From an uncultured Gemmatimonadaceae bacterium (GTDB lineage: Bacteria > Gemmatimonadota > Gemmatimonadetes > Gemmatimonadales > Gemmatimonadaceae): a DNA stretch of 64,000 nt. Position 1 is the first letter of the stretch. Each line of letters starts with the position of its first letter. The notes under the pieces are model-generated. The model did not search any database and was not told where the DNA came from. It saw only the letters and a list, made by a program, of their open reading frames with translations. Shown piece after piece: positions 953 through 60,452 of this stretch. The translations under genes were made by a program, and so were the position numbers. The stretch spans positions 608,001 through 672,000 of the forward strand of contig CAWAGQ010000004.1 in assembly GCA_963781585.1 (NCBI GenBank), written 5' to 3'.

Positions 953-1544
953 GTTCCCCTCACTTCGTAGATCGCATGCCGGTCCCACGGTCTCGTCCGT
1001 CCAAGTACCCGGTGCGCAACGCGTCCAGGGAGGCTTGTGCGACGTTGTGCAGGAAATCTGACGCGAGCCTCAATTCGCTCGAATCTGCGGGCGCCTGACC
1101 ACCGAGTCGGGAGATCCCCGACAAGCGGAACCGCTCCCTATTGTTACCGGCGGTCAGCCGGGATTCCCCAGGTAGCGAGGGTTCGCTGGATGATGGCGCG
1201 TTAGGCGCCTTTGGCGTTAGAGACGTCGGGGGCCGCGGTGCGGGCGATCTCCGCGAGACCGTCGGTCACGTCGCGGTAAGGGTGGACGAAGGCCTGGAGC
1301 GCGGCGAGAAGGGCATCGGTCGATGCGAATACAGCGGGATGGGACGCGAACACCATAACGCCGTGCGTGAGCAGGTTGTTGCTCTGCGAGAACGGCACGC
1401 GTCGCCTGGCGACGAAGTTGATCACGGACGCTTCCCGTGTCTCACCCTCCTAATGAACGACGAAGCGTGCCCGCCGTTGCGCTTGCCGATTGACCATTTC
1501 CACGATCGATCCGTGGTTCAGGATGGCTGAGCACGTGCGAGCGA

Positions 1545-4016
1545 CTAATAGCGCCCCGTCCTCAACAAGCGTCCGAGCGCTTCGTACGCGGTGCCGAACG
1601 CGGTCCAGTCGCCGCGTCGAAGCGCGTCGCGCATGGCAGCATAGAGCGCCTCGACGCGGGCACGGAATTCTTCGGGAGTGGGTGGCGGCGTGTTCACCGG
1701 CGGACCGGGCACGCCGACCGCGTCAGCGATGGTGGCCCCCGATGAGACGCTGTCACCGTGAAGCACCGAGACGTATACCACGTGCGGCGTTCCGTCTGGA
1801 CGCGTGGCGTAATGCGTCTCGATCGACAGCACGCTCCCGGCGCTCGGCACGATTCGAACAGCCCCCTCCAGGAGACGCGTGTCGCTCAGCACGCTCCGTA
1901 ACGAGTCACCGGCGCGTTGCAGCCGATCCACCACCTGCGGCCAACGTGCTTCTTCCGATTCGCGAGGGCGCCAGGACAAGTGTGCTTCGGGTCCGCCCTC
2001 GCCCGTTACCACGCCGCGAAGCCGGTCTCGCGCGTCGAGTACCGCAATGGCGATGGAGAGGAGGCCGGTCGCGTGATCGACGTACGGCGGTGCCGAGCGC
2101 ATGGTGAAGACCGTGTCGGCGCCCGTCTCCCGCGGGAGATGGGACGGCGGGACGTACTCGTTGCGGACGCCGACCTGCGCGAACGCCGCCGCTTCGATGA
2201 TCGTGCCGTCGACGGCGGGTGGCAGCTTGCGCAGCAGATCGCGATCCAGCGCCCCGGGCTCGACGAACAGGCTGGGAAATCGACCCATCCAGGTGACCGT
2301 CACGGGATCGGGATACGGATCGCCGATGGCGATGCTCCGTCCGGTGTGCGCGTTCACCAGCGCGACCGCGGCATGACGCAGGTAGTGCACCAGGTGGCCC
2401 CGCAGATCCATCGCCGCGCTCAGTGGATACCACTCGGAGGTCGCATAGAGATGCACTGCCCAGAAGAGGGAGTCCCGCCACACGATGGGGCTCACCTCGG
2501 ATCCCTGCTCGAAGAACGGATACAGCGCGTGCAGGCGCGCGCGCAGGTCGCGCCGCAGGACGATCCGATTGCGACCCGCCGCGAATGACCCCCGTAACAG
2601 CCCCGGTTCCTGGAGTCGCCAGGCATGGGCCAGACGCACCGAGAACGCGCGGAGGTCCGGTGCGGCGACCCGTCCTGTGGTGTCCGACACGATGGCGTAC
2701 GTGCTCGCCGAATCCGACACCAGCACGCCGTAGAGCGTGGACGCGGTGAGCGTGCCCGACTCGGTCAGCTCCACCAGGCCGCCGCGCTGATCGGCCACAT
2801 CGGCGGCGATTCGCGTGACGTGCCAGGGCGGCTGCGCATCGACGCTTTCCGGCCCCGTCGGCTGCTCCACCGCGACCGCCACCAGGCGTTCGTCATCGAC
2901 CTCCCACCCGAGAGCGCCGTTCACCCGGGAGGACGGACGAACGGGCTCGATGGCGCGTGCGAGCGCGATGCCATCCCAGAGGGAGGCGCCGCGTGCCGCA
3001 TCGACGAACGACGGGGCCGGAGGGGCCGGTGCCTCGCGGGTGAGTCGGTCCACGTCGTAAGCGCGTCGCGTGTACCCGTCCCTTGTGGCGCGGTAGGGCC
3101 GCTCGCGCGCCTCGGGATCGGCCGGGGCGATGAATCGCTCGGCGACGGGCGGGACGATCTGACGCAGGGTGAGGGCGATCAGGAGCACCGCCGTGATGGT
3201 GAAGAATGCCGTCCGAATCTGCGCCGTCCACCCCGACCATACGACGAGCATCGCGCCCGCCACCGCCACCACCGACAGAATGAGATTCACAGGCAGTCCG
3301 ACCCGATGGTCGATCGCCGAAAAGGTCCCGAGGGCGCCACTGCCGCTGGTTAGGAGACCGTACGCGTCCAGGCGATAGGTCCACGACAGCAGGAGGAGCA
3401 GCACGGCGCCAAGGGCGAACAGGTGTCGTCGCACGTAGCCGGTGACGTGCAGTCGGCCGTTGTGCCAGTGCAGGCTGGGCGTGAGCGCGTAGAAGAAGAC
3501 GCACACCAGGAAGACCGAGAGCAGCACGACGAAAGCCCACAGATGCAACGATGATTCGAGCGGGAGCCAGTAGACCCAGAATGCCAGGTCGCGCTGGAAA
3601 TACGGATCGGTCTCCCCGAACAGGGTGCCATGGCGGATGAGGTCGACGGAGATCCAGTCGTTCTGTCGCATCGACAACACCGCTCCCAGCACCATCGAGA
3701 GCACGACCACCGTGATGAGGAGGTACCGCCCGGGCACTTCCTCGCCGATCTCGATGTTGGCGATGCGCCGCGGCAGGCTGAAGGAGCCGAAGGAACGCCG
3801 GACCGCGTACAGATTGACGAACACGAATGCCGACCCGGCCAGAAAGATGCACCCGCGCAACAGGAGCAGATCCGACGCGCGCGCGCGCCACAGGTCGGTC
3901 GCCCCAAGGGCCGCGTACCACTGGTACTCGACGTACCATCCGGCGGCCATTCGACCCAGCAGCAGGAGCGCCGCCAGCGACAGAACGAGCCCGATCAACC
4001 AGCGGCGCGACCTCAC
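1545..4016 (-). CDS. UPF0182 family membrane protein
   Basis: N-terminal TM helices, DPYFQRDLAFWVYWLP and TRRAYDVD motifs, C-terminal ALRRGDWTAFGTAY; GTG start at 4016 chosen. Confidence 0.85.
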   Translation of the reverse strand: MRSRRWLIGLVLSLAALLLLGRMAAGWYVEYQWYAALGATDLWRARASDLLLLRGCIFLAGSAFVFVNLYAVRRSFGSFSLPRRIANIEIGEEVPGRYLLITVVVLSMVLGAVLSMRQNDWISVDLIRHGTLFGETDPYFQRDLAFWVYWLPLESSLHLWAFVVLLSVFLVCVFFYALTPSLHWHNGRLHVTGYVRRHLFALGAVLLLLLSWTYRLDAYGLLTSGSGALGTFSAIDHRVGLPVNLILSVVAVAGAMLVVWSGWTAQIRTAFFTITAVLLIALTLRQIVPPVAERFIAPADPEARERPYRATRDGYTRRAYDVDRLTREAPAPPAPSFVDAARGASLWDGIALARAIEPVRPSSRVNGALGWEVDDERLVAVAVEQPTGPESVDAQPPWHVTRIAADVADQRGGLVELTESGTLTASTLYGVLVSDSASTYAIVSDTTGRVAAPDLRAFSVRLAHAWRLQEPGLLRGSFAAGRNRIVLRRDLRARLHALYPFFEQGSEVSPIVWRDSLFWAVHLYATSEWYPLSAAMDLRGHLVHYLRHAAVALVNAHTGRSIAIGDPYPDPVTVTWMGRFPSLFVEPGALDRDLLRKLPPAVDGTIIEAAAFAQVGVRNEYVPPSHLPRETGADTVFTMRSAPPYVDHATGLLSIAIAVLDARDRLRGVVTGEGGPEAHLSWRPRESEEARWPQVVDRLQRAGDSLRSVLSDTRLLEGAVRIVPSAGSVLSIETHYATRPDGTPHVVYVSVLHGDSVSSGATIADAVGVPGPPVNTPPPTPEEFRARVEALYAAMRDALRRGDWTAFGTAYEALGRLLRTGRY

Positions 4017-4024
4017 GGCCCTGA

Positions 4025-7054: not shown

Positions 7055-8629
7055 CTATCGCCCTCCGCGCGAGAACTGTGCGCGCTGCAGCTGGGCGGCC
7101 GCGTCGACGCGTTGCACGAAATTGGACGTCGACGCCTCCATGCGCGTGAGCACGGGCTTAGGATAGACGCCAAGCCAGATGATGCCGGCCAGCAACGGCA
7201 CCAGCAGTCCGATCTCACGCCAGTTCAGGTCGGTGAGCAACGCGTTCCTCGGCTTGTCCAGCGCGTTGTAGATGAGGCGTTGCAGCGCCCAGAGCATGTA
7301 TGCGGCGGCCAGAATCACTCCCACCGCCGAGATCATCGTCATGTAGGGGTAGGTCTTGAACGAGCCCACCATGACCAGGAATTCCGACACGAACCCGTTG
7401 GTCCCCGGCAAGCCGATGCTGCTCAGCGCCACGATCGTCAGCACGGTGGCGAACATCGGCACCACCCGCGCGATGCCGCCGTAATCGGCAATCAGTCGTG
7501 TGTGGGTGCGTTCGTAGATGATGCCCACCAGGAAGAACAGCGCGCCGGTGGACAGCCCATGCCCGATCATGACCATCAGCGCGCCCTGGACGCTCTCCCG
7601 GGTGAGGGCGAAGATGCCCAGCATGACGAATCCCAGGTGCGCGACCGACGAATACGCCACCAGCTTCTTGATGTCCGGTTGCACCAGCGCGACCAGTGAT
7701 CCGTAGATGACGCCGATAACCGCCAGGGCGATGATCACACCGCGGACCACGGGATGCATCGCCACCCCGGGAAAGAACGGCACGGCGAACCGGAGAAACC
7801 CGTACGTCCCGAGCTTGAGCAGGATGCCGGCCAGCACGACCGATCCCGCGGTGGGCGCTTCCACGTGCGCATCGGGCAACCAGGTGTGGAACGGGAACAT
7901 CGGGACCTTGACGGCGAACGCCACGAAGAACGCCGCGAACAGCCAGAACATGACCGCCGGTGTCACGCCGCGTACCGCGAGAATGGCCTCGTAGCTGAAA
8001 TTCGGCGTCCCCTGCGCGTAGCCCGCCTGGAGTCCGAGATAGACGATGGCGACCAGCATCAGCAGCGAACCGACCAGCGTGTACAGGAAGAACTTCACGC
8101 TCGCGTAGATCCGGCGCTCCCCGCCCCAGATGCCGATGATGAAATACATCGGGATCAGCATCACTTCCCACATCACGTAGAACAGGAACAGATCCTTCGC
8201 GACGAACACCCCGAGCACACCGGTGGTCAGCAGGAGCATCAGGGCGTGATAGGCGCTGACCTTGGTGCGCACGCTCGTCCATCCGCCGAGGATGGCCAGC
8301 GGCATCAGGAACGTGGTGAGCAGCACCATCATCAGCGAGATGCCGTCCACACCCACGGCGAAGTGCACGCCCCAGGCGTTGATCCACGGGACGTCCACCA
8401 CCGCCTGCCAGTCGGGCACCGAGGAATCGAGCGACCACCACAGGCCTAACGAGACGATCAGTTCGACCACCAGCACGCCGAACGTGAGGCGACGCGCCAG
8501 GCGGTCGCCGGCCTCACCCTGGGTCACTCGTCCGACCAACCAGACCAGCAGCGCGCCGGCCGTGGGAATGATCAGCAGCGCCGGCAGCACCCAGGCGTTG
8601 TAATGCAGCGCGTCGAGAAAGGCGTTCAT
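7055..8629 (-). CDS. nuoM: NADH-quinone oxidoreductase subunit M
   Basis: VKVPMFPFHTWLPDAHVEAPT, KKLVAYSSVAH. Confidence 0.95.
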   Translation of the reverse strand: MNAFLDALHYNAWVLPALLIIPTAGALLVWLVGRVTQGEAGDRLARRLTFGVLVVELIVSLGLWWSLDSSVPDWQAVVDVPWINAWGVHFAVGVDGISLMMVLLTTFLMPLAILGGWTSVRTKVSAYHALMLLLTTGVLGVFVAKDLFLFYVMWEVMLIPMYFIIGIWGGERRIYASVKFFLYTLVGSLLMLVAIVYLGLQAGYAQGTPNFSYEAILAVRGVTPAVMFWLFAAFFVAFAVKVPMFPFHTWLPDAHVEAPTAGSVVLAGILLKLGTYGFLRFAVPFFPGVAMHPVVRGVIIALAVIGVIYGSLVALVQPDIKKLVAYSSVAHLGFVMLGIFALTRESVQGALMVMIGHGLSTGALFFLVGIIYERTHTRLIADYGGIARVVPMFATVLTIVALSSIGLPGTNGFVSEFLVMVGSFKTYPYMTMISAVGVILAAAYMLWALQRLIYNALDKPRNALLTDLNWREIGLLVPLLAGIIWLGVYPKPVLTRMEASTSNFVQRVDAAAQLQRAQFSRGGR

Positions 8630-8633
8630 GAGC

Positions 8634-10844
8634 TCAGCGAAGAGAAAACGCGCCGACCACCGCCAGTACGCCGAGCACCAGCACCCAGGCGTAGGTGCCC
8701 ACGCTGCCCGTCTGCAGGCGCGCACCGATCCAGCCCAATCCCCGCATCAGGTAGGCGGCGCCATTGACCAGCAGTCCGTCGATGAGGCCCACATCCATCC
8801 CGCGCCACAGCACGGACCGCGACAGGCCCACCATCGGCTCCACGATCGCGCGATCGTAGGCCTCGTCCACGTAGTACTTGTGCTCGAGCACGCGCTCCAG
8901 GCCGGTCGATTCCGGCGCCTGCGCCTTGGGCACCAGCCGCTCCGGTTTGAGCCGGATCATCGCCAGCGCGATGCCGAGCACCGCGATCGCCACGGCGACC
9001 CCCACCAGCCCCAGCTCCAGACCCCTGGACAGCGGCGCGACCTCGCCACCCGTTATGCGGACGGTTGCCACGCCCGTCACCGGCTCCAGCCATCGCTCCA
9101 GCGCCTGAGTCGGTCCGGCCTTGAAGAATTCCGGAAGGTTGAACCACCCCCCCACCGCGCTCAGCAGACCAAGCGCCACCAGCGGACCGGTCATGATCCA
9201 CGGTGCCTCGGCCAGGTGCGCGCGCTCCTTGTCGCCAGTGCGATTCGGCCCGTGAAAGGTGTAGAGCATCATCCGCGTCATGTAGACCGCGGTCAGCAGC
9301 GCGGCGACGACGCCGAAGACGTACACCACGTACAGCACGAATCCGCCGGGAAGGCCCAGCCAGTGCGCGTCGGCCAGCGTGGAGCCGCGCGCCCGCTCGA
9401 ATGCGGCCTCCAGGATCCCATCCTTGGAGAAGAAGCCCGCAAACGGCGGAATGCCGCAGATCGCGAGCGTGGCGATCCACATGAGTACGAACGTCACCGG
9501 GAGGAAGCGGCGCAGCCCGCCCATGTTGCGCATGTCCTGCGCATCCTCGTGGCTTCCGGTGTGGTGATAGGCCCGGTGCATCGCGAAGATCACCGAGCCG
9601 GAGCCGAGGAACAGCAGCGCCTTGAAGAACGCGTGGGTGACCAGGTGGAAGATCCCCGCCGCGTATGCGCCGACCCCCACTCCGATGAACATGTAACCCA
9701 GCTGCGACACCGTGGAGTATGCCAGTACGCGCTTGATGTCCCACTGCTTGAGGCCGATGGTCGCGGCAAACAGCGCGGTCAGCGCTCCGATGAACGCCAC
9801 CGACAGGCTGGCAACCGGAGCGAGCGAGAAGATCACCGCGCTGCGGGCCACCAGATACACGCCGGCAGTGACCATGGTCGCGGCGTGGATCAGCGCCGAC
9901 ACCGGCGTCGGACCGGCCATCGCGTCAGGCAGCCAGGTGTACAGGGGAATCTGGGCGCTCTTGCCGGTACATCCGAGAAAGAAGAACAGACCGATCGCGC
10001 TGATGACCGCGCTCCCCGCGCCAAGACCGGGGGCTCCGGCATTCACACCCGCGAAGTCCAGCGATCCCAGATTCGCGTACAGCAGCAGCATCGCGATCAG
10101 GAATCCGAAGTCGCCGATTCGATTCACGATGAACGCCTTCTTGCCGGCGTCGGCGTTCACCTTGTCCGTGTACCAGAATCCGATCAGGAGATACGAGCAG
10201 AGCCCCACCCCTTCCCAGCCCACGAACAGCACGGGGTAGCTGGCGCCGAGCACCAGGACCAGCATGAAGAAGACGAACAGATTGAGGTAGGCGAAGTACC
10301 GCGGGTAGCCCGGGTCGTCGCGCATGTACCCCACGCTGAAGAGATGAATCAGGAATCCGACCCCGGTCACCACCAGCGTCATCACCATCGAGAGCTGGTC
10401 CACCTGGAGCGCCGCGTCGACGTGCAGATCGCCGGCCACCAGCCACGGGAACAAGGTGCGCACATACGGCGCCTCGGCGTGCGCGCCGGCGAGCGCAAAG
10501 AAGATCGACACCGAAAGCACGAAGGCCAGGCCGAGCACCGCCGGGCCCACCAGACTCACCACGCCGGCGTAGCGATGCCGGGTGACATGGTGGTCGTCGG
10601 CATGGTCGTCGGCATGGTCGTGGCTCAGGTCGTGCTGGTCCCCGCCACCCGGATGGGGTTCCCCGGCGTGGTGCGCATCGTGCGTCGAGGGGTCGGCCGG
10701 GCCGATCTGCGCGGCGCTGGCCAGCGACAGCGCGCCGTTGATCAGGAATCCCAGCAGGGGCAGCACGGGAACGACCCAGATCCACTCGGCGATGCTGCCT
10801 CCGAGCGGGTGGGGCGCGCTGGACGCGACGGCCTGGAGAAGCAT
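8634..10844 (-). CDS. nuoL: NADH-quinone oxidoreductase subunit L
   Basis: GWEGVGLCSYLLIGFW, GKSAQIPLYTWLPDAMAGPTPVSALIHAATMV. Confidence 0.95.
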   Translation of the reverse strand: MLLQAVASSAPHPLGGSIAEWIWVVPVLPLLGFLINGALSLASAAQIGPADPSTHDAHHAGEPHPGGGDQHDLSHDHADDHADDHHVTRHRYAGVVSLVGPAVLGLAFVLSVSIFFALAGAHAEAPYVRTLFPWLVAGDLHVDAALQVDQLSMVMTLVVTGVGFLIHLFSVGYMRDDPGYPRYFAYLNLFVFFMLVLVLGASYPVLFVGWEGVGLCSYLLIGFWYTDKVNADAGKKAFIVNRIGDFGFLIAMLLLYANLGSLDFAGVNAGAPGLGAGSAVISAIGLFFFLGCTGKSAQIPLYTWLPDAMAGPTPVSALIHAATMVTAGVYLVARSAVIFSLAPVASLSVAFIGALTALFAATIGLKQWDIKRVLAYSTVSQLGYMFIGVGVGAYAAGIFHLVTHAFFKALLFLGSGSVIFAMHRAYHHTGSHEDAQDMRNMGGLRRFLPVTFVLMWIATLAICGIPPFAGFFSKDGILEAAFERARGSTLADAHWLGLPGGFVLYVVYVFGVVAALLTAVYMTRMMLYTFHGPNRTGDKERAHLAEAPWIMTGPLVALGLLSAVGGWFNLPEFFKAGPTQALERWLEPVTGVATVRITGGEVAPLSRGLELGLVGVAVAIAVLGIALAMIRLKPERLVPKAQAPESTGLERVLEHKYYVDEAYDRAIVEPMVGLSRSVLWRGMDVGLIDGLLVNGAAYLMRGLGWIGARLQTGSVGTYAWVLVLGVLAVVGAFSLR

Positions 10845-12186: not shown

Positions 12187-13475
12187 CAGCGGCTGACTCG
12201 CTGCAGGAGGTGTTCGCGAATGGCGGTGGCGGCGCGGATCCGCGCCAGGCGCTCCTGCCCCACCCGCGAGTACGCGGGACTGATGATGCGGCCGCGGTCG
12301 AGCACGAAAAACAGCCCTGTCAGCAGGACGGCGTTCACCGCGAACAGGATCAGGGCGTAGGTCACGCCCCGGGTCAGCCCCGCCGCGTCGAGCGCCAGCA
12401 CCAGCGCGGCCGTCGCGGTGATGTAGCCCAGCGACAGCGGGAGCATCACCTTCCATCCCAGCGACATCAGCTGATCGTAGCGGAAGCGCGGCAGCGTCCA
12501 GCGGATCCAGATGAACGCGAACAGGAAGAAGCCGGTCTTGAGGGCGAAGATGAGACCGGAGAGCAGCACCTGGAGGAACGGCACCGCCTGGGTGTTGTCG
12601 CGCAGCGTGAATGGGATGTCCCAGCCCCCGAAGAACAGCGTCGCGATCAGGGCGCTGGCGGTCATCATGTTGGCATACTCGGCGATGAAGAACAGCGAGA
12701 ACTTCATCGCGCTGTATTCGGTGTGATAGCCGGTGATGAGTTCCGATTCGGCCTCGGGCAGGTCGAACGGCAGGCGGTTGGTTTCGGCGAACGAGGCCAC
12801 CAGAAACAGGAAGAACGACACCGCCAGCGTGAGCACATTCCAGAGGTGCATCGACGCCTGCTGATTCACGATCTCCCGCAGCGACACATTGCCGCTCAGC
12901 AGCAGGACCGGGATCAGCGACATGCCGAGCGCTACCTCGTACGAGATCATCTGGGCGCTCGAGCGCAACCCGCCCAGCAGGGCGTACTTGTTGTTGGACG
13001 ACCATCCGGCGAGGACGATGCCGTACACGCCTAACGACGACAGGGCGAGAATGAACAGGAACCCCACCGGCAGATCCGCCAGCACCATGTCGATCCGGCC
13101 CCACGGCGAGGCCCACGACGCGGCAAACGGGATCACCGCCCAGACCATCATCGCCGGGACGAAGCTCAGCATCGGCGCCAGCATGAACAGCGTCCGGTTG
13201 GCGTAGGGCGGCAGCGTCTCTTCCTTCATCATGTTCTTGAGCCCGTCCGCCAGCGGCTGAAACAGGCCCTGCGGTCCCACCCGGTTCGGACCGTGGCGAT
13301 CCTGGATCCAGGCCGAGATCCGCCGCTCGGCCAGCGTCAGGTACGCCACGCCGAGCAGGTAGACGGTGAAGAAGATCAGGAGCTTCACCAGCATGGCGAC
13401 AAACCAGGGCCCGAATCGCGGTGCGGCCTGCGGATCGGCCACCTGCAGCAGCAGGGCGAACGGCCAGGCACTCAT
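12186..13475 (-). CDS. nuoH: NADH-quinone oxidoreductase subunit H
   Basis: QDRHGPNRVGP, ETNRLPFDLPEAESEL, RWTLPRFRYDQLM. Confidence 0.95.
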   Translation of the reverse strand: MSAWPFALLLQVADPQAAPRFGPWFVAMLVKLLIFFTVYLLGVAYLTLAERRISAWIQDRHGPNRVGPQGLFQPLADGLKNMMKEETLPPYANRTLFMLAPMLSFVPAMMVWAVIPFAASWASPWGRIDMVLADLPVGFLFILALSSLGVYGIVLAGWSSNNKYALLGGLRSSAQMISYEVALGMSLIPVLLLSGNVSLREIVNQQASMHLWNVLTLAVSFFLFLVASFAETNRLPFDLPEAESELITGYHTEYSAMKFSLFFIAEYANMMTASALIATLFFGGWDIPFTLRDNTQAVPFLQVLLSGLIFALKTGFFLFAFIWIRWTLPRFRYDQLMSLGWKVMLPLSLGYITATAALVLALDAAGLTRGVTYALILFAVNAVLLTGLFFVLDRGRIISPAYSRVGQERLARIRAATAIREHLLQRVSR

Positions 13476-24805: not shown

Positions 24806-24812
24806 GGGCGGC

Positions 24813-25544
24813 CTAACGGTGCGCGGAGGCCATCACCCCCGCCTGCGACCGTCCGATGACGCCGCCCGCCACCGCCAGAGGCACCAGAGAGAACGCCAGC
24901 CACAGCGCCACTGCCAGCAGCGTGACGAACGGCCGCGAGAACGGGTTCCGCCGCGCGCGCGACAGCCCCAGGGTGCGGATGGCGCTCCAGGCGCCGTGAT
25001 ACAGGTGGAGTCCCACCACCACCATCATCGTCAGGTAGAACACCACCATCACCGGTTGGGTGGTGAAGGCCAGGACCACGTTGCCGTACGGATTCCCGGC
25101 CGCGAATCCCGGCAGCAGCTGGCCGCCGGTGAAGTGGAGCAGGTGAATCACGACGAACAACGCCAGCAGGACCGACAGCCAGCGGATGCTGCGTGAGGCA
25201 AAGGTCGCGATCTGCTTCTCGGCGCGATCGTACGCGACCGGACGCGCCAGGCGGCTGGAACGCGCGAGTTGCGTTGCGGCCGTGGCGTGCAGCAGGACCG
25301 ACGCGAGCAGCACGATGCGCGCAGGCCAGAGAATCTCCGGCGTCGCGTGGAGGAATCGGGAGTAGGCGTTGAGCTCCGCCGGCCCGAGGAACGCGAGCAG
25401 ATTGGCCGCCGCGTGGGTGACCAGAAAGCCCACCATGATCAGACCGGTGGCCGCCATGACGATCTTCTTGCCGACCGTCGACGCCCAGAATCGGGCCAGG
25501 CGGCCAGCCGGCGCCGCCACGGGCGTGGTGGCGGCGGCTGTCAC
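24813..25544 (-). CDS. sdhC: Succinate dehydrogenase cytochrome b subunit (single-anchor type)
   Basis: [13 protein letters not shown], about 5 TM helices with His ligands, HLYHGAWS. Confidence 0.9.
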
Positions 25545-35184: not shown

Positions 35185-35651
35185 GAACCGTGCGGCGTGC
35201 GCTCCGCGACCAGCCGGTCGAACACGCGGCGGATCTCCCCCTGCAGCTCGATGAGCGTGTCGCGGTAGTGCTCCAGCTCGCCGCCGAACGGATCGCTGAT
35301 GGCGCGGTCGCTCGCCGAATTCGACGCGAACGCGCTGAGGAGGTAGGTCTTCCCTTCCCCGCCTAACGCTTCAGCGCGCTCCAGGTGATGCGGGCCCATG
35401 ACCAAAATAATGTCGTGCTGCCGGACCAGGTCCCGGCTCAGCTGCTGCGCACGATGGGCACTGAGGTCGAGAGTGCGTTCCAGGGCCACCAGCAGCGCAC
35501 CGTCGGAGGCCGGAGCGCCCTCCCAGGCGCTCGTCCCCGCGCTCGCGACTTCCACGTCCGGCAATCCGCGCGCCATGGCTTCGCGGCGCGCCAGGGCCTC
35601 GGCCAGCGGGCTCCGACAGGTATTCCCGGTACACACAAAGAGAAGTCGCAT
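35181..35651 (-). CDS. Low molecular weight protein (Tyr/Arg) phosphatase
   Basis: VCTGNTCRS P-loop, DPFG. Confidence 0.92.
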   Translation of the reverse strand: MRLLFVCTGNTCRSPLAEALARREAMARGLPDVEVASAGTSAWEGAPASDGALLVALERTLDLSAHRAQQLSRDLVRQHDIILVMGPHHLERAEALGGEGKTYLLSAFASNSASDRAISDPFGGELEHYRDTLIELQGEIRRVFDRLVAERTPHGS

Positions 35652-45675: not shown

Positions 45676-47147
45676 CTCGTCCTCCCCCGAACGAATTCCA
45701 CAAAGGTACCCACTGGCACGCCGGTGGGTCCGCGCGGAATGATGACGAGATCCGTCTCGCTGTAGGCCGTCCCTGCCACGTCGAGGTGCACCCACGGATA
45801 GTCCACGAACTCCTGGAGGAACTTGGCGGCCGTAATGGTGCCGGCGGCGCGTCCGCCGGTGTTCTTGACGTCAGCCACGTCCGACTTGATGAGCTCCCGG
45901 TACTCGTCCCACAGGGGGAGTTGCCACGCCGGTTCGCTTGCCCGGCCGGCGGCGCTCACCACCTCGCGCACCAGACGGTCGTCACCGCCTAACGCGCCGG
46001 TTGCGGCGCTGCCGAGGGCCACGACGCAGGCGCCGGTCAGGGTGGCCGCATCGATCACCGCCTCCGGCTTGAAGCGCTTCACGTAGGTGAGCAGGTCGGC
46101 CAGCACCAGCCGGCCTTCGGCGTCGGTATTGATGATCTCGATGGTGCGACCCGAGCTGGCCGTCACCACGTCGCCCGGCTTGACGGCGGTGCCCGACGGC
46201 ATGTTGGTCGTGGCGCCGAACACGCCGACGACGTTCGCGCGGAGTCCGAGGCGCGCAATCGCTTCCATCGCCCCGATCACGCCCGCCGCGCCGCACATGT
46301 CGAACTTCATGAATTCCATGCGATCGGCCGGCTTGATGGAGATGCCTCCCGTATCGAAGCAGAGTCCCTTCCCCACCAGCACAATCGGTCTGGCGTCCTT
46401 CCTGCCCTTCCGGTATTCCAGCGTCACCAAGCGGGGCTCCTGCGGTGTGCCCTGGGCGACCGCGAGAAACGAGCCCATCTTCTCGCGCTCCATTTCCTTG
46501 CGACCGAGCACTGTAACCTGCATCCGGTGGCGCTTGCCGATGTCGCGAGCCACGTCAGCCAGGAGATCGGGGGTGCAGAGATTCCCCGGCATCATCGCGA
46601 GACGCCTGGCCACCGCGTATCCCGACCCGAGCGCCAGCGCCGCGGCCAGCCCCCGCCGCGCGCGGGCGGCGTCGGCCACCAGAATGGTGGCCGCCGTGAG
46701 CGGTGCGCGGCGTGACTCGTCAGGCGGCGGAGTCCTGAGGTCGTTGTATTCCCAGCTGCCGAGCTGCACTCCCACTCCCACCCCTTCCACACCGCGCGCG
46801 TCCAGGCGCCCACCCCAGACGGTCATCGATCCCACCCCCATTCGTTGCGCCTGGCGCGCGGCCAGCGTGGCCGCGCGGCGCAGCGCCAGCCCCACGTCCT
46901 TCGGAGTGCCGATCCCGACCAGCAGCAGCCGCCGGGCCCGGCCCTCGCGTCCGCTGAGGTGCAGGGTCTCGTCGCGTTCGCCGCGGAAGTCGCCGCGCTG
47001 CAGCGTCTGCGACAACAGCCCGTCCGTTGCGGCGTCGAGCGGTCGCAGAGCAGGAGGAAGCCGACGTGATGCGGGGAGCAAGAGCACCAGAAGCGGTGTC
47101 GCGACGCTGGTGACGTCGGACGACCGAACTTCGAGCGAGAGGGGCAT
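45672..47147 (-). CDS. pepA: Leucyl aminopeptidase (M17)
   Basis: VGKGLCFDTGG, MKFDMCG, NTDAEGRL, HLDVAG. Confidence 0.93.
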   Translation of the reverse strand: MPLSLEVRSSDVTSVATPLLVLLLPASRRLPPALRPLDAATDGLLSQTLQRGDFRGERDETLHLSGREGRARRLLLVGIGTPKDVGLALRRAATLAARQAQRMGVGSMTVWGGRLDARGVEGVGVGVQLGSWEYNDLRTPPPDESRRAPLTAATILVADAARARRGLAAALALGSGYAVARRLAMMPGNLCTPDLLADVARDIGKRHRMQVTVLGRKEMEREKMGSFLAVAQGTPQEPRLVTLEYRKGRKDARPIVLVGKGLCFDTGGISIKPADRMEFMKFDMCGAAGVIGAMEAIARLGLRANVVGVFGATTNMPSGTAVKPGDVVTASSGRTIEIINTDAEGRLVLADLLTYVKRFKPEAVIDAATLTGACVVALGSAATGALGGDDRLVREVVSAAGRASEPAWQLPLWDEYRELIKSDVADVKNTGGRAAGTITAAKFLQEFVDYPWVHLDVAGTAYSETDLVIIPRGPTGVPVGTFVEFVRGRTS

Positions 47148-47264: not shown

Positions 47265-48233
47265 TCACACCACCCGATCAGGTGGCTCGCTCCCATCCAG
47301 GAAGGCCGCGATGTTCGCAAGGGCGCGATGGCCCATCGCCGAGCGCGACTCTGTCGTGGCGCTGCCCAGGTGCGGCAGCGCGACGACGTTGTCGAGGGCC
47401 AAGAGCGCGGGATCGACTGCCGGTTCGCGCTCGAACACGTCGAGCGCGGCACCTGCGATGGTGCCGTTTCGGAGGGCCGTTGCCAGCGCGCGTTCGTCGA
47501 CCACGTCGCCCCGGCTGGTGTTGATCAGGAAGGCCGTGGGGCGCATCTGTTCCAGGCGGCGCCCGTCGATCAGGTGATGGGTGTCGGGGTTTGCCGGGCA
47601 GTGGAGCGACACGAAATCCGATTGGGCGAGCAGGTCATCGAGGCTACATCGCTCGGCGCCGAGCTCGCGAACGAGGGTGTCGGGCGCGTCGTGCCGCGTA
47701 TGGTACAGCACGCGCATCCCGAAGCCGCGATCGGCGCGCAGGGCCACCGCGCGGCCGATCCGACCGAACCCAACGATCCCGATGGTCCGACCCGAGACGC
47801 GCGTGCCTAACAAGTAGGTCGGACGCCACCCGGTCCAGCGGCCCGCCCGGAGGTCGCGCTCGCCATCCCGGAACCGCCGTGCCACTGCCAGCAGCAGGAG
47901 CATCGTGAGATCGGCGGTGTCTTCGGTGAGCACGCCGGGGGTATTGGTCACGACCAGGCCGGCATCGCGGGCGGCATCGAGCGCGATGTTGTCGACGCCC
48001 GCGCCGAAGTTGGCCAGGAGTCGCGCCCGGAAAGGCGTGCTCTTCAGAACGGCTGCGGTCATCTGATCGGACACTGTGCACAGGACCACATCCGCTTCGT
48101 GCAGGGCCGCGATCAGCTCGTCAGGCGTGAACGCATGATCGTCGGGATTGAGCCGGGCGTCGTACAGTAAGTGCAGCTCGTGCTCGACGGGCGCGGGCAG
48201 GCGTCGCGTGGCGATGACGGTCGGCTGCGGCAT
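47265..48233 (-). CDS. D-2-hydroxyacid dehydrogenase (glyoxylate reductase/D-glycerate DH)
   Basis: TNTPGVL, GFGRIG, INTSRG, LDVFE, PHLGS. Confidence 0.92.
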   Translation of the reverse strand: MPQPTVIATRRLPAPVEHELHLLYDARLNPDDHAFTPDELIAALHEADVVLCTVSDQMTAAVLKSTPFRARLLANFGAGVDNIALDAARDAGLVVTNTPGVLTEDTADLTMLLLLAVARRFRDGERDLRAGRWTGWRPTYLLGTRVSGRTIGIVGFGRIGRAVALRADRGFGMRVLYHTRHDAPDTLVRELGAERCSLDDLLAQSDFVSLHCPANPDTHHLIDGRRLEQMRPTAFLINTSRGDVVDERALATALRNGTIAGAALDVFEREPAVDPALLALDNVVALPHLGSATTESRSAMGHRALANIAAFLDGSEPPDRVV

Positions 48234-49573: not shown

Positions 49574-49733
49574 TGCTTTGCTACGCACCCGCGTCTGGCG
49601 ACCTGATGAAGGCGTGGTCCATCGCACCGGCAAGACTTCTGGCACCGCGGCATAAGCGACGATCATTCCCCACCGGCGGCCCCTTGGGTGCGCCGATCGT
49701 CCGCCTGCGCGCCTAACGCTCGGTCGAAATGAG

Positions 49734-49789: not shown

Positions 49790-49901
49790 AACAACGACGG
49801 GTGCGGTGTTTGCCGGTGTTCGCCGATGTTGTTGTGTGAGCGACCGTTAGGCACTTCGGTTCATGTGCTGCGGGAAGCATGTTTGACGATGTTTTGCGGT
49901 G

Positions 49902-49951: not shown

Positions 49952-50977
49952 GTGCACACGACACCTGATCTGGAGCTGTTGCGCTCTGTTGGAAGCGGCC
50001 AAGTCTGGGCCATCGACCCCGATCGGTTGGAGGCCGTGCTCGGCCTTGCCACGCTCCGCGGTGCGCAGGCCGGACCGGAGCGCCGAGGCGTGTTGGCCCC
50101 GCGCGCTCCGCTCGTTACGGGCGGCGTCGCCGTGCTGCCGATGCATGGCATCCTCGTGCATCGCGCGTCGCCGCTCGCGAACCCGCTCGGTGCGGTGACA
50201 TCCACCGAAGCGGTGGGCCGGTCGTTGGACGACCTGCTCTCCCACGGGACGGAGACCATTGTGCTGGAGGTGGACTCGCCCGGCGGGGAATACGACGGCG
50301 TTCCAGAACTTGCGGACAAGGTATTTCACGCGCGGAGCCGGGCGCGCATCATCGCCGTGGCGGATAGCCTGGCGACGGCTGGCGCGTACGTCGTGGCTGC
50401 GGCGGCTGGTGAACTGGTGGTGAGTCCGTCGGCGGTCGTGGGCGGGCTCGGCGTCTTCACCATGCACGATGACTTCTCGGCGATGTTCGAACGGGTCGGG
50501 CTCACACGGACGGTGGTGCGGGCGCCAGCCTCCAAGGCCGAAGGCGCGGGGAATCTCCCGCTCAGCGCGGCGGCCCGCACGGCGCTCCGGGCGACCGTGC
50601 AGACGGTGTACGCGACATTAGTGGAGTCCGTGGCGCGCGGCCGGGCCGTCACGCCCGCAAGGGTTCGCGACGGGTTCGGCCAGGGGCGTACGGTCATGTC
50701 AGAGCGCGCCGTGCGAGAGGGCATGGCCGATCGCGTGGCCACGCTCGAAAGCGTCGTGCGCGCGTATCAGCGGAGCGCGCCGCCTCTTGGCCGGAACGCC
50801 TTCCGGGCGCCCGCGGAGTCCCCGCCGTTAGATGCTGATGCGCCTGGCGCATGGATCCGCTGCGATGCCGACGACGCCCCTGATCCATTTGCGGTAGAGT
50901 GGGATCGGTTCTATCGGCCGCGCGACGGAGGGAACGCCGCGGTACTTCGTCGGCGGCTCGAGTTGGAAACCGACTGA
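49952..50977 (+). CDS. S49 (SppA/prohead-protease-like) peptidase homologue, nucleophile Ser apparently replaced
   Basis: VAVLPMHG, IVLEVDSPGG, ELADKV, FGQGR, GMADRVAT; LATAGAY in place of AASAAY and GGLGV in place of GSIGV. Confidence 0.85.
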   Translation: MHTTPDLELLRSVGSGQVWAIDPDRLEAVLGLATLRGAQAGPERRGVLAPRAPLVTGGVAVLPMHGILVHRASPLANPLGAVTSTEAVGRSLDDLLSHGTETIVLEVDSPGGEYDGVPELADKVFHARSRARIIAVADSLATAGAYVVAAAAGELVVSPSAVVGGLGVFTMHDDFSAMFERVGLTRTVVRAPASKAEGAGNLPLSAAARTALRATVQTVYATLVESVARGRAVTPARVRDGFGQGRTVMSERAVREGMADRVATLESVVRAYQRSAPPLGRNAFRAPAESPPLDADAPGAWIRCDADDAPDPFAVEWDRFYRPRDGGNAAVLRRRLELETD

Positions 50978-51697: not shown

Positions 51698-51700
51698 ACG

Positions 51701-56002: not shown

Positions 56003-56072
56003 CAAGCGTTTGCAGCCGACGGCGGCGTGTGAAATCGTTTGGTGCCGCCGCGGCTGAAACACAACGTTAGGC
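55997..56072 (+). other. attC recombination site (76 bp)
   Basis: GCATAAC-AAGCG-TTTGCAGCCGACGGCGGC...GCCGCCGCGGCTGAAAC-ACAAC-GTTAGGC: R''/L''/L'/R' architecture, imperfect palindrome. Confidence 0.88.
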
Positions 56073-56774: not shown

Positions 56775-56863
56775 GCCTAACAACGTTTGCTGCTGGCAGC
56801 CGGAGCTGACCTGCTCGGACGTCCGAATCTGCCCGCCACGCGGCTCGAACGCGCGAGTTCGGG
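56775..56863 (+). other. Second attC site, degenerate
   Basis: GCCTAAC (complement of cassette-2 start GTTAGGC)-AACGTTTGCTGCTGGC...GCCACGCGGCTCGAACGCGCGA-GTTCGGG. Confidence 0.6.
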
Positions 56864-56980
56864 TACGACGCGGGCGACTCGTGGAAAAAGGGCACGCCCT
56901 ATGACCATCGTCGGGATGAGGGCGAGGCTGGCGACGGAGCGACTGTCGCCTAACGGTTTCGTCACGCCATTTCGCTGTTG

Positions 56981-59141: not shown

Positions 59142-59144
59142 CCG

Positions 59145-60452
59145 GTGCAATCTCGCGTCGATGCGTACGAGCCGCAGAATGACGAAGAGCTCGAGGACGT
59201 CCTCGGGTCGCCAGAGGGGAACGGCACGAAACCGCATCCGGCGAATGAGCCCGGACTCCCTTCCTTCGTGCGACTGTCCGAGGTGGCGCCTGACATCGCG
59301 ATCGAGTGGGACGCCGAGGACCTCTTTGTGCACGGAGAACCTGCGGTTCTGGCCGGGAGAGGGGCCACGTACAAGACGTCGACGATCCTCGCGATGGCCG
59401 GCGCCGTCGCGACGGGACATCGCGTCTTCGGGCGGTTCCATGTGCCCACGCCTGGTCCGTTCTGCTACGTCTCAGGCGAGGATCCGCCCGAGGTGATCCG
59501 CAACCGCCTCGAGGCCATTTGCCACGGCCACGGCTATAACGTGGCCGACGCGTTCGAGAACGTGCACGTGCTCGCGCTCTCCGGCATCGACCTCGCGGAA
59601 GAACGTTGGCGTCGACACGTCAGGGATGAAGTGCGCGCCATCGGCGCGCGGATGCTCGTGCTGGATCCGCTCGCCGAAGTGGACAGCGGCGAGGAGAACA
59701 ACAACGACGACCGCCGGCGCCTCGTACGCGCGATCCGGTGGTTCGGCGCGGAGACCGACGCGACGGTCCTGGTGGCGCACCACTTCCGCAAGAGCGCCGA
59801 GGGCGGAGACAAAGGTGATCTGATCCGGGGCGGTAATGCGCTCCCAAACGCGTCCCGGCAGACGTACGCCTTGGAACGCCTCGACGACGGGAGCGTGACC
59901 GTGGAGTGCGTGAAGTTCTCGCGGGCTGCGCGGCGACCACCCTTCGTGCTGCGGCCGATCATAGAGACCAAACCGGGCAACGAAGCGGTCTGGCTGAGTG
60001 CCCGGTTTGAATACGCCACGGCCTCCGAGGCCAAGTTCGACCGGGCGGAGGAATTCGTGCTCGAGCGCCTCACGCTCGGGGTCCGATTGAGCACCTCAGA
60101 CCTGAAGCTCGAGGCCAAGGGGACCGGTGTTTCCGGTGCCGATATTGCCCGGGCGCTGCGGGTGCTCGAGATGCGCCGGCTCATCAGTTTCGAGGCCGGG
60201 GAGAAGAATGCGAAGCTCTGGGGTCTGGTTGCCGGGCAAGCTGGGCAACCAGAGAATGTGCTTGCCCGGCAAACAGGCAGCTTGCCGGGCAACCAGAATA
60301 AGGCCGGTTCTGCTTGCCTTGCCCCCTTTAGGGGGGCAAGCAGAAACCGGCCGCCTAACGAGCACCGGCAACCAGACCCGCCCCCGAACCACGGCGAGGC
60401 CTGGGAGCCGCCTCTCGACGATTCGCAGGCAGCGATGTGGGGCGGCGCATGA
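59145..60452 (+). CDS. AAA_25/RepA-type replicative helicase
   Basis: Walker A AGRGATYKTS, YVSGED, Walker B LVLDPL, EENNN, VAHHFRK, IRGGNAL. Confidence 0.85.
   Translation: MQSRVDAYEPQNDEELEDVLGSPEGNGTKPHPANEPGLPSFVRLSEVAPDIAIEWDAEDLFVHGEPAVLAGRGATYKTSTILAMAGAVATGHRVFGRFHVPTPGPFCYVSGEDPPEVIRNRLEAICHGHGYNVADAFENVHVLALSGIDLAEERWRRHVRDEVRAIGARMLVLDPLAEVDSGEENNNDDRRRLVRAIRWFGAETDATVLVAHHFRKSAEGGDKGDLIRGGNALPNASRQTYALERLDDGSVTVECVKFSRAARRPPFVLRPIIETKPGNEAVWLSARFEYATASEAKFDRAEEFVLERLTLGVRLSTSDLKLEAKGTGVSGADIARALRVLEMRRLISFEAGEKNAKLWGLVAGQAGQPENVLARQTGSLPGNQNKAGSACLAPFRGASRNRPPNEHRQPDPPPNHGEAWEPPLDDSQAAMWGGA
60227..60350. repeat. Putative replication origin (iteron-like palindromes)
   Basis: TTGCC(G/C)GGCAA at 60229, 60262 and 60282, then hairpin CTTGCCCCC-TTTA-GGGGGGCAAG. 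Confidence 0.65.

What the first reader, a model, noticed from the sequence alone, without database searches (positions are those of the whole stretch)
1200..60359. Over-represented, strand-biased heptamer GCCTAAC/GTTAGGC embedded in housekeeping genes
Seen by eye: GCCTAAC on + at 8444, 13029, 17962, 23333, 24811, 25655, 27509, 32167, 35361, 39242, 45987, 47805, 49711, 56775, 56948 and 60353 (16), and GTTAGGC at 1200, 31156, 49846 and 56066 (4). Assuming ~68% GC, a zero-order model gives ~3.5 per strand, and TTA/TAA words are otherwise rare here. Within genes it forces rare codons in different frames (TTA GGC in nuoM/nuoH/nuoD/sdhA/mdh/pgk/dnaB, GTT AGG in moaA, CTA ACG in tpiA, the TAG stop of sdhC), pointing to selection at DNA level. 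Inference: a lineage-specific signal (Chi-, KOPS-, HIP1- or uptake-like, or a protein/methylase site). It also equals the integron core consensus GTTRRRY.
Basis: partly seen in the sequence, partly recalled or inferred. Interest (0 to 1): 0.72.

Follow-up and report, generated by a model that had tools for sequence, protein, structure and literature searches.

The report
Hyper-abundant genome-wide DNA word YGCCTAACG
A soil bacterium of the family Gemmatimonadaceae has written one short DNA word, GCCTAACG, about 1,500 times into its genes by silent codon changes, much like the DNA "uptake tags" of Neisseria and Haemophilus, and the word is the same as the core of integron recombination sites.

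Summary
Genome-wide there are 1,591 copies in 5.7 Mb. That is 13x an order-3 Markov expectation and about 13x a synonymous-codon shuffle, and it is the top-ranked 7-mer. The true unit is Y-GCCTAAC-G-(not G), with the same flanks inside and outside genes.

Copies arise by silent changes: 15% of all [S/P/T/A]-Leu-Gly and 32% of Pro-Asn-[VADEG] sites carry the word, and half of all TTA codons sit in it. The strand bias follows gene direction (Leu-Gly is commoner than Pro-Asn), not replication, so Chi and KOPS are disfavoured. No RecC or AddB was found.

Copies avoid each other at short range, are denser in compositionally typical genes, and are scarce in low-GC islands. They are conserved between two species of the genus far better than control words (Jaccard 0.67 against 0.11-0.34).

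The trait is patchy, at 0.005 to 1.45 copies per kb. It occurs in several lineages of one order and in 0 of 102 genomes outside it. It tracks no integrase, Vsr or methylase family tested.

Best reading (about 0.4): a DUS/USS-like, self-propagating transfer tag. An unexplained fact is that it equals the attC R'' box of this clade's integrons.

The parts
1200..1206 (-). Motif copy (GTTAGGC on +, context CGTTAGGCG); outside my confident gene calls.
8444..8450 (+). Motif copy in a nuoM/N-type gene (ORF 7055..8725, minus strand); coding strand reads G|TTA|GGC. Not shared with G001.
   Evidence: frame from coordinates
13029..13035 (+). Motif copy in nuoH (minus strand): TCG TCG TTA GGC GTG = S-S-L-G-V. 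Shared with G001. None of 67 aligned relatives encodes this site as TCG TTA GGC; most use TCG CTC/CTG/CTT GGC.
17962..17968 (+). Motif copy in nuoD (minus strand): GCG TTA GGC = A-L-G. Shared with G001.
23333..23339 (+). Variant copy (GCCTAACA) in sdhA (minus strand): TTG TTA GGC = L-L-G. G001 has CTA here.
24811..24817 (+). Motif copy at the gene junction upstream of sdhA; it overlaps the TAG stop of minus-strand ORF 24813... Shared with G001.
25655..25661 (+). Motif copy in mdh (minus strand): GCG TTA GGC = A-L-G. G001 has CTG GGC.
27509..27515 (+). Motif copy in moaA (minus strand), in the rare frame GTT AGG C = V-R.
31156..31162 (-). Motif copy in tpiA (minus strand); coding strand reads nGC CTA ACG. 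Shared with G001.
   Evidence: frame from coordinates
32167..32173 (+). Motif copy in pgk (minus strand): GCG TTA GGC = A-L-G. G001 has CTA.
35361..35367 (+). Motif copy in a low-molecular-weight phosphotyrosine phosphatase gene (minus strand): GCG TTA GGC.
39242..39248 (+). Motif copy in dnaB (minus strand): ACG TTA GGC = T-L-G.
45987..45993 (+). Motif copy in an M17 leucyl aminopeptidase gene (minus strand): GCG TTA GGC. Shared with G001.
47805..47811 (+). Variant copy (GCCTAACA) in a D-2-hydroxyacid dehydrogenase gene (minus strand): TTG TTA GGC. Shared with G001.
49711..49717 (+). Intergenic copy; left member of a convergent pair 135 bp apart. The pair does not fold better than shuffles (z = -0.07).
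49846..49852 (-). Intergenic copy; right member of the convergent pair. G001 has CGTTAGGT here.
56066..56072 (-). Copy in the lower-GC stretch (about 52-57 kb) that has no counterpart in the aligned G001 region; no confident gene.
56775..56781 (+). Variant copy (GCCTAACA) in the same stretch; no confident gene.
56948..56954 (+). Copy in the same stretch; no confident gene.
60353..60359 (+). Copy in a plus-strand AAA_25 ATPase gene: CCG CCT AAC GAG = P-P-N-E (the Pro-Asn class).

Best explanation
YGCCTAACG is a DNA-level 'genome tag' of the same kind as the neisserial DUS and the pasteurellacean USS. Some step of DNA transfer between cells is assumed to prefer fragments that carry the word. The most likely step is binding or uptake of free DNA by the competence machinery, followed by homologous recombination. 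Any mutation that creates the word is then over-transmitted. Copies pile up wherever they cost least, that is at silent positions of common peptides, until mutation and drive balance. Shown here: the abundance, the DNA-level nature of the word, its neutrality to orientation, the spacing, the conservation, the depletion in atypical DNA and the patchy taxonomic spread. Inferred: that the biased step is uptake or transfer.
For: 1. Abundance is beyond any compositional null: 13x order-3 Markov and about 13x a synonymous shuffle. Density reaches 1.45 copies per kb in relative G009, comparable to my recollection of DUS/USS density (about one per kb; no call).
2. The word is a DNA-level unit. The flank preferences (Y at -1, G at +7, not-G at +8) are the same in intergenic copies, Leu-Gly copies and Pro-Asn copies. 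Density is about 0.27 per kb in genes and 0.30 per kb between them.
3. Copies are created by silent changes at conserved peptides. In nuoH, 0 of 67 aligned relatives use TTA GGC where G000 and G001 do. 692 of 4,480 [SPTA]-L-G sites and 252 of 782 x-P-N-[VADEG] sites are occupied. 692 of 1,329 TTA codons lie in the word.
4. There is no replichore orientation. The orientation bias inside genes matches what the abstract of PMC2346458 reports for USS and DUS.
5. Copies are over-dispersed at short range. In G000, 39 gaps under 300 bp were seen against 128 expected, and 87 under 500 bp against 207. In G009, 10.8% of gaps are under 200 bp against 25.7% expected, with CV 0.79.
6. Density rises from 0.09 to 0.44 per kb across GC3 classes, although the word has an AT core. 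The longest copy-free stretches are low-GC.
7. Copies are retained. Over 405 kb aligned between G000 and G001 (87.6% identity), 72 are shared, 9 are private to G001 and 26 to G000. Jaccard is 0.67, against 0.11-0.38 for the 15 other 8-mer strings listed, or 0.11-0.34 leaving out the one-off variant CGTTAGGT (0.375); three of the strings are reverse complements of others, so 12 are distinct words. Private sites differ mostly by one base.
8. Turnover is fast and lineage-specific. One genus holds 3,896 and 4,141 copies against 66.
9. ComEC, a ComEA-like protein, DprA and secretins are present in G000.
Against: No uptake experiment exists for this phylum, and no receptor was identified. The competence genes tested occur in motif-poor relatives too (ComEC 40 of 41, ComEA-like 39 of 41), so they do not explain the patchiness. 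Close inverted pairs acting as terminators (as I recall for DUS; no call) are rare here: 14 convergent pairs under 300 bp among 1,574 gaps. In the complete relative G303 the two megabase secondary replicons and a 21-kb contig are at least as dense as the chromosome (0.75, 0.86 and 0.95 against 0.62 per kb). A process acting inside the cell on all resident DNA would predict this more directly. Every statistical feature listed is also compatible with selection for a protein-binding site. Gene calls are my own crude ones (79% coding), the genome is a MAG (93.5% complete, 7.2% contamination), and replication direction was inferred from weak GC skew.
Confidence: 0.4

Rival explanations
1. HIP1-like origin. 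A sequence-specific enzyme pair inside the cell (a methyltransferase that recognises the word or its core, plus a methyl- or sequence-directed mismatch repair) converts near-cognate sites into the word and keeps them, as Elhai proposed for the cyanobacterial GCGATCGC.
For: The word is an octamer written silently into coding DNA. It is patchy among relatives, and the enriched one-off variants mostly keep the inner hexamer: CGTTAGGT 7.8x and TGTTAGGC 5.2x. This resembles the bias towards end positions reported for HIP1 (abstract of PMC4390886). All replicons of G303 are equally dense.
Against: The word is not a palindrome. No methylase or repair family tested tracks richness. C5 methylase and Vsr are each in 5 of 41 relatives and were not found in the richest genome, G009. 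N6_N4 methylase is in 16 of 41 and in neither G000 nor G001. N6_Mtase is in 17 of 41 and not in G000. The Eco57I family is in 39 of 41, rich and poor alike. A conversion process does not predict the shortage of close pairs. The family searches cannot see specificity, so this rival is weakened, not excluded.
Confidence: 0.2
2. Selected binding site of a chromosome-associated protein (nucleoid organisation, segregation or a self-marking system). Copies are kept because the protein needs regularly spaced sites.
For: The word is conserved between species, evenly spaced, present on all replicons and scarce in foreign-looking DNA.
Against: Density varies about 300-fold among relatives, and within one genus from 66 to about 4,000 copies. 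That is hard to reconcile with a core chromosomal function. No candidate protein is known.
Confidence: 0.12
3. Integron-related. The copies are bare R boxes (GTTAGGC) recognised by the integron integrase. They either serve as secondary targets or were spread by abortive strand exchange with attC sites.
For: The word equals the R''/R' boxes RYYYAAC/GTTRRRY (PMC12901181, passages read, which also gives GCCTAAC as the R'' of attC-aadB). It is the first 8 bases of the attC sites of this order. Integron integrases are common here: 28 of 41 relatives at E<=1e-60. G000 has one at C7:185885-186829.
Against: The integrase does not track richness. It was not found in G009, G005, G024 or G015, yet it is present in poor genomes such as G002, G003, G004, G011 and G292. 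Copies have no L boxes or hairpin: the flanks carry no information beyond 10 bp, and only one strong attC-like hairpin was found in G000. Position +8 is G in attC but disfavoured genome-wide. Targets inside essential genes would be harmful.
Confidence: 0.08
4. Chi-like recombination hotspot for a helicase-nuclease (RecBCD, AddAB or AdnAB), or a KOPS-like guide for FtsK.
For: The word is an over-represented octamer found mainly in typical core genes. In G000 its density, one per 3.6 kb, is comparable to that of Chi in E. coli (recalled, not from a call).
Against: No co-orientation with replication was seen in G000 or in a complete relative chromosome. RecC and alpha-type AddB were not found, and the only PDDEXK_1 match is weak, 31 bits. 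The MAG is 93.5% complete. A density of 1.45 per kb in G009 is very high for an 8-mer Chi.
Confidence: 0.06

Closest known systems
DNA uptake sequences: DUS of Neisseriaceae and USS of Pasteurellaceae
   Same: A short word of 8-10 bp at 0.3-1.5 copies per kb, found inside and between genes. It has no replichore bias, one orientation is favoured inside genes for coding reasons (PMC2346458 abstract), spacing is more even than random, and it is specific to a clade.
   Different: The phylum is Gemmatimonadota, a high-GC soil group. The core is AT-rich and built from the rarest codons. Close relatives lack the word entirely, and one poor relative sampled (G003, 200 kb) shows no replacement 'dialect'. 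Terminator-type inverted pairs are rare. Uptake specificity is untested, and no receptor such as ComP is known.
HIP1 (GCGATCGC) of cyanobacteria
   Same: A hyper-abundant octamer written into coding DNA, patchy among relatives, with one-off variants concentrated at the outer positions (PMC4390886 abstract).
   Different: HIP1 is a palindrome and goes with specific orphan methyltransferases. This word is asymmetric, and none of the four methylase families tested tracks it.
Integron attC R''/R' boxes (RYYYAAC / GTTRRRY)
   Same: The 7-mer is identical, and 8 bases match the attC sites of the same order.
   Different: More than 98% of the copies in G000 lack the paired box, the L boxes and the hairpin. 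They lie in frame in housekeeping genes and are not next to intI.
Chi (GCTGGTGG) and KOPS (GGGNAGGG) of E. coli
   Same: An over-represented octamer in the core genome.
   Different: Chi and KOPS are co-oriented with replication. This word is not, and no RecBCD/AddAB genes were found.

Membership tests
DNA uptake sequence (DUS/USS type) | Hundreds to thousands of copies, far above compositional and codon-aware expectation | tested here: met
   1,591 copies against 123 (order 3). In CDS, 1,134 against 89 after synonymous shuffling.
DNA uptake sequence (DUS/USS type) | Both orientations present, with no bias by replication direction | tested here: met
   Intergenic 22:23. Head-on and co-directional genes behave alike. 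G303 chromosome 113:133 with no reversal.
DNA uptake sequence (DUS/USS type) | Spacing more even than random | tested here: met
   39 gaps under 300 bp against 128 expected. G009 spacing CV 0.79.
DNA uptake sequence (DUS/USS type) | Scarce in recently acquired DNA, enriched in the native core | tested here: met
   0.09 to 0.44 copies per kb across GC3 classes. The longest copy-free stretches are low-GC. This rests on a composition proxy only.
DNA uptake sequence (DUS/USS type) | Competent cells preferentially take up DNA that carries the word | not testable with these tools
   Needs uptake or transformation assays. Competence genes are present but are not specific to rich genomes.
DNA uptake sequence (DUS/USS type) | Frequent close inverted pairs acting as terminators (neisserial type) | tested here: not met
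   Only 14 convergent pairs under 300 bp, none an immediate hairpin.
Chi site | Co-orientation with the direction of replication | tested here: not met
Chi site | A cognate RecBCD or AddAB enzyme in the genome | tested here: not met
   PF04257 and TIGR02786 gave no match; PF12705 gave only 31 bits. The MAG is 93.5% complete, and AdnAB was not searched.
KOPS / FtsK-orienting sequence | Strong skew that switches at ori and dif | tested here: not met
HIP1-type iterated sequence | Palindromic word | tested here: not met
   GCCTAACG differs from its reverse complement CGTTAGGC (sequence itself).
HIP1-type iterated sequence | Co-occurrence with a methyltransferase specific for the word | tested here: inconclusive
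   PF00145 in 5 of 41, PF01555 in 16 of 41 (none in G000 or G001), PF02384 in 17 of 41 (none in G000), PF07669 in 39 of 41. None tracks richness. Specificities are unknown.
Integron attC site | R''-L''...L'-R' imperfect inverted repeat that folds into a hairpin | tested here: not met
   Flanks are uninformative beyond 10 bp. One strong attC-like hairpin was found in the whole genome.
Integron attC site | Arrayed in one orientation next to intI | tested here: not met
   True for the hits in poor relatives (G027:C80 and C95) but not for the dispersed copies in G000.

The most novel reading that the evidence does not exclude
The identity with the attC R'' box is not a coincidence. In these Gemmatimonadales lineages a DNA-uptake or recombination specificity has been tuned to, or derived from, the integron recombination core. 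Free DNA that carries integron cassettes would then be imported preferentially, and as a side effect the bare R box has been driven into thousands of chromosomal sites. This would physically couple natural transformation to cassette capture. Experiments in Vibrio already link the two processes (titles and abstracts of PMC8191803 and PMC12614218).
Probability: 0.1. Interest if true: 0.9.

Novelty: new variant of a known kind. Interest (0 to 1): 0.78.

Why it matters
If the word is an uptake or transfer tag, it would be, as far as I recall, the first uptake-type tag outside Proteobacteria, and in a phylum described in one abstract seen (PMC8547001) as among the ten most abundant in soil. That would show that self-preferring DNA exchange is not a peculiarity of two host-associated families.

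Its on/off distribution makes the responsible gene findable by phyletic profiling. One genus holds about 4,000 copies in two species and 66 in a third. A complete, motif-rich genome (G303) suggests that a tractable strain may exist.

If it is instead HIP-like, it is a non-palindromic case and would widen that unsolved problem.

There are practical consequences either way. The word distorts codon statistics: half of all TTA codons sit in it. It marks native against foreign DNA. It could also serve as a binning or contamination check for these MAGs. The identity with the attC core raises a testable link between integrons and genome-wide sequence drive.

Tried and rejected
- Chance or codon artefact: rejected.
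- Replication-linked skew (Chi, KOPS): rejected.
- RNA- or protein-level signal: rejected. Both orientations, all frames and intergenic copies share the same flanks.
- Vsr/Dcm-type very-short-patch repair: the gene pair exists in G000 (C7:477177-478451) but occurs in only 5 of 41 relatives and was not found in most rich ones.
- Integrase as driver: no association with richness.
- attC sites as the source of the copies: one hairpin found. My first filter was too strict and found none. The looser energy-based scan found one.
- An alternative 'dialect' in poor relatives: none in 200 kb of G003. The over-represented 8-mers of G037 turned out to be tandem (GGAGTRA)n arrays, not a dispersed word.
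- The tRNA-like look of window 49730-49790: ARAGORN finds no tRNA. The convergent pair there does not fold better than shuffles.
- ComEA as a specificity determinant: present in 39 of 41 relatives, and identity follows relatedness.
- Literature. No paper was found that treats this word as a genomic signal; one search returned 4,851 papers holding at least one of the four strings, and the 25 I saw listed were unrelated in topic. No paper held both 'Gemmatimonadetes' and 'uptake sequence'. The word is absent from PMC2843746.
- Earlier findings of this scan were not open.
- Sequencing runs: one soil run held 0.06 of the words.
- The careful tree search did not finish. The quick tree is used.

Full report
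**1.

GCCTAAC occurs at exactly the 20 places listed, 16 on the plus strand and 4 on the minus. Dinucleotide-preserving shuffles give a mean of 2.6 and never more than 7.

The window is G000:C4:608001-672000 of a 5.72-Mb, 17-contig, 67% GC assembly. Titles of the closest public relatives place it in the Gemmatimonadaceae.

The window is not special. Every contig carries 0.22-0.38 copies per kb, 1,591 in all. Expected numbers are 646, 212, 107 and 123 under Markov orders 0 to 3. GCCTAAC/GTTAGGC is the highest-scoring 7-mer of the genome under order 3, with z = 132.6.

The order-5 ratio of 1.05 is uninformative. That model predicts a 7-mer from its own two 6-mers, and these occur almost only within the word.

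Shuffling synonymous codons within each of my 3,877 gene calls leaves 48+41 copies, against 342+792 observed. This null is conservative because it keeps the surplus TTA codons.

**2. What the unit is**

Position +7 is G in 91% of copies and position -1 is C or T in 80%. These preferences, and the avoidance of G at +8, are the same in three groups:

- 349 copies outside my gene calls;
- 751 copies read G|TTA|GGC;
- 269 copies read G|CCT|AAC.

The unit is therefore a DNA-level word of about 10 bp, Y-GCCTAAC-G-H, and not a by-product of one reading frame.

Some one-off variants are themselves enriched: ACCTAACG 7.8x, GCCTAACA 5.2x, GCATAACG 4.8x and GCCTGACG 2.7x. The other 20 variants lie between 0.3x and 2.1x.

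**3. How copies sit in genes**

My gene calls are crude: ORFs scored by codon usage, covering 79% of the genome. 'Intergenic' therefore includes some missed genes. With that caveat:

- Density is the same inside and outside genes, about 0.27 and 0.30 per kb.
- Within genes the word uses the four frames that avoid a stop. Occupancy of all sites where it could be written silently is as follows:

| Site class | Occupied / possible | Share |
|---|---|---|
| [S/P/T/A]-Leu-Gly | 692 / 4,480 | 15.4% |
| x-Pro-Asn-[V/A/D/E/G] | 252 / 782 | 32.2% |
| Val-Arg frame | 37 / 3,144 | 1.2% |
| [S/R/G/C]-Leu-Thr frame | 64 / 2,283 | 2.8% |

- 692 of the 1,329 TTA codons in my gene calls lie in xCG TTA GGC.
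- At the nuoH copy (window 13029) the peptide S-L-G is conserved. 67 of the 80 fetched loci could be aligned, and none encodes the site as TCG TTA GGC. Most use TCG CTC/CTG/CTT GGC, and one has TCG TTA GGG.

The word was therefore made by a silent double change.

The window's own copies fit this pattern: 11 Leu-Gly copies in minus-strand genes (a nuoM/N-type gene, nuoH, nuoD, sdhA, mdh, pgk, a phosphatase gene, dnaB, an M17 peptidase gene and a 2-hydroxyacid dehydrogenase gene), one Val-Arg copy (moaA), one Leu-Thr copy (tpiA) and one Pro-Asn copy in a plus-strand gene. The rest lie outside confident genes.

**4. The strand bias comes from gene direction, not replication**

Genome-wide, GTTAGGC lies on the coding strand in 69% of genic copies. 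The share is the same for genes classed as co-directional and as head-on by GC skew.

I then restricted the test to regions where skew and gene orientation agree:

| Class | GTTAGGC : GCCTAAC on the coding strand |
|---|---|
| Co-directional genes | 117:38 |
| Head-on genes | 29:12 |

In the same regions, intergenic copies have GTTAGGC on the leading versus the lagging strand 22:23.

In the complete relative G303 (5.31-Mb chromosome) I sampled 20 stretches of 20 kb. They hold 113 and 133 copies of the two orientations, with no reversal under either way of halving the circle.

The Pro-Asn orientation is used more per available site than the Leu-Gly orientation. The bias therefore reflects how common Leu-Gly is, together with the minus-strand genes of this window. 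This removes the main argument for a Chi- or KOPS-type signal. In addition, no RecC or alpha-type AddB was found, and the only PDDEXK_1 match is weak.

**5. Distribution along the genome**

Gaps between copies have the Poisson median but too few short values:

| Gap | Observed | Expected |
|---|---|---|
| under 300 bp | 39 | 128 |
| under 500 bp | 87 | 207 |
| under 1 kb | 267 | 388 |

Density rises with compositional typicality, from 0.09 per kb in the lowest GC3 decile of genes to 0.44 per kb in the highest, although the word itself has an AT core. The longest copy-free stretches are low-GC, for example C8:283862-322252 at 62%.

**6. Conservation and turnover**

I aligned 405 kb of G001 (same genus, 87.6% identity) to G000. 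The word is shared at 72 sites, private to G001 at 9 and private to G000 at 26. Jaccard is 0.67. The same script listed 15 other 8-mer strings, which gave 0.11-0.38; leaving out the one-off variant CGTTAGGT (0.375) the range is 0.11-0.34. Three of the 15 are reverse complements of others and repeat their counts, so they make 12 distinct words.

Private sites mostly differ by one base, for example CGTTAGGT, CGCTAGGC and CGTCAGGC. In the window, 7 of 15 alignable copies are shared, and all 7 G001 copies in the aligned part are shared.

Copies are thus retained much better than comparable silent sequence, while new ones keep arising.

**7. Taxonomic spread**

Among 41 relatives the 8-mer count ranges from 5 to 6,360. 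Ten genomes have at least 300 copies, and the richest is G009 with 6,360 in 5.1 Mb. A 236-kb sample of G009 gave:

- 1.45 copies of the 7-mer per kb;
- the same flanks as in G000;
- spacing CV of 0.79;
- 10.8% of gaps under 200 bp, against 25.7% expected.

In a survey of 301 genomes of the phylum that are at least 85% complete, 14 have at least 300 copies: 10 in family f1 and 4 in one genus of f2. None of the 102 genomes outside the order exceeds 70. Two f3 genera are rich.

One genus holds 3,896 and 4,141 copies against 66. The poor member is 77% identical in the nuo region and has ordinary codons at its relative's copy sites.

On a quick NuoG tree (74 rows; 7 of the 80 loci were dropped for short matches; the careful search did not finish), 7 of the 9 rows with two or more local copies fall in one clade of 10. 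Two lie elsewhere, and one of those sits beside a copy-free sister.

A poor relative (G003, 200 kb) has no substitute dispersed word.

The tallies include unpublished genomes: G008 in the 41-genome searches, and G008, G084, G123 and G202 in the survey. All four are poor in the word, and no conclusion rests on them.

**8. The integron coincidence**

GCCTAAC/GTTAGGC is the R''/R' box of integron attC sites (RYYYAAC/GTTRRRY; PMC12901181, passages read).

In poor relatives, many of the listed hits lie in one-orientation runs with about 500-650 bp spacing, and where I looked these are cassette arrays. In G027 such a run lies beside an intI match. Its repeats read GCCTAACGG...L''...L'...TGTTAGGC, a textbook attC.

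Integron integrases are common in the order (28 of 41 relatives at E<=1e-60), and G000 has one. Three points argue against a direct integron origin of the dispersed copies:

- The integrase does not follow motif richness.
- The dispersed copies have no L boxes or hairpin.
- attC has G at +8, where the dispersed word avoids it.

The dispersed copies are therefore not attC sites. Still, an 8-base identity between the most over-represented word and the clade's own recombination core is unlikely by chance. By my own arithmetic, 2 of 65,536 octamers give this match. I leave it as unexplained, and it forms the basis of the novel reading.

**9. Explanations**

The combination of features seen here is the signature described for DUS and USS:

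- a DNA-level word, neutral to orientation;
- silent placement in genes;
- even spacing;
- enrichment in native DNA;
- retention with turnover;
- rapid lineage-specific gain.

The within-gene orientation bias also matches (PMC2346458, abstract). The core competence genes are present. I therefore favour a transfer-biased drive, most likely at DNA uptake, with confidence of about 0.4.

What is missing is decisive. There is no uptake experiment and no receptor, and the competence genes occur equally in poor relatives.

The equal or higher density on G303's secondary replicons fits an intracellular, HIP1-like conversion process somewhat better. Against that rival, four methylase families and Vsr show no association with richness.

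A selected protein-binding site, an integrase-linked process and a Chi-like role are ranked lower, for the reasons given under each rival.

**10. Verdict**

The finding is real and strong. As far as three full-text searches show, it has not been described. It is best filed as a new variant of the known class of hyper-abundant genomic words. The mechanism is unproven, and the tie to integron recombination sites is intriguing and testable.

Noticed in passing
G027:C95:1-24000, G027:C80:90-7148, G027:C43, G025:C3, G095:C12, G099:C55 (relatives): Large one-orientation integron cassette arrays with canonical attC sites (GCCTAACGG...CAGCTTCAAGCGCTTGTTAGGC, about 100 bp) every 500-650 bp. In G027:C80 the array lies next to an intI match. 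Integron integrases are found in 28 of 41 relatives, so this order is rich in chromosomal integrons.
   Followed up: partly
G000:C7:185885-186829 (-) and G000:C13:335129-335219: The window's own genome has a full-length integron integrase (434 bits, cut-off 265). It also has one clear attC-like hairpin on another contig.
   Followed up: partly
G037:C1 (e.g. 141666-141750 and 145779-145860 on the reverse strand of the fetched 200 kb): Intergenic tandem arrays of a heptamer, (GGAGTRA)n, strongly one-stranded: 78 of 84 pattern matches lie on one strand. This is a different phenomenon from the dispersed word.
   Followed up: partly
window 49880-49935 and 49950-57200: Three direct repeats of GTTCTAGCACA lie just upstream of ORF 49952..50977 (Peptidase_S49). 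A lower-GC stretch follows (62% at 52-56 kb) that has no counterpart in the aligned G001 region and includes a weak YdaS-like hit. It is probably an island or prophage remnant. It contains only 3 copies of the word.
   Followed up: partly
G000:C7:477177-478451: A C5 cytosine methyltransferase gene is directly followed by a Vsr endonuclease domain, a Dcm/Vsr-type pair. The same pairing is seen in G007, G019 and G034.
   Followed up: partly
G000:C7:172407-173237, C7:183006-183836, C13:309021-309851: Three identical copies of a 303-aa tyrosine-recombinase ORF, probably an active mobile element. Two of them lie within 15 kb of intI.
   Followed up: no
G000:C4 around 580-600 kb (just left of the window): GC skew and gene orientation both switch sign here. 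Genes converge, and a Xer-like recombinase match lies at C4:588569-589372. This looks like a replication terminus, so the window would sit just beyond it.
   Followed up: no
whole genome G000: GCCTGAC/GTCAGGC, one transition away from the word, is also over-represented: 2,052 copies against 992 under order 3. So are AGCGCCT, AGCGGCT and AGGCCAA under order 5. The cause was not examined.
   Followed up: no
G303:C4 (20,952 bp contig): A small separate contig of the complete relative carries 19 copies in 20 kb, 0.95 per kb. This is denser than the chromosome sample (0.62 per kb).
   Followed up: no
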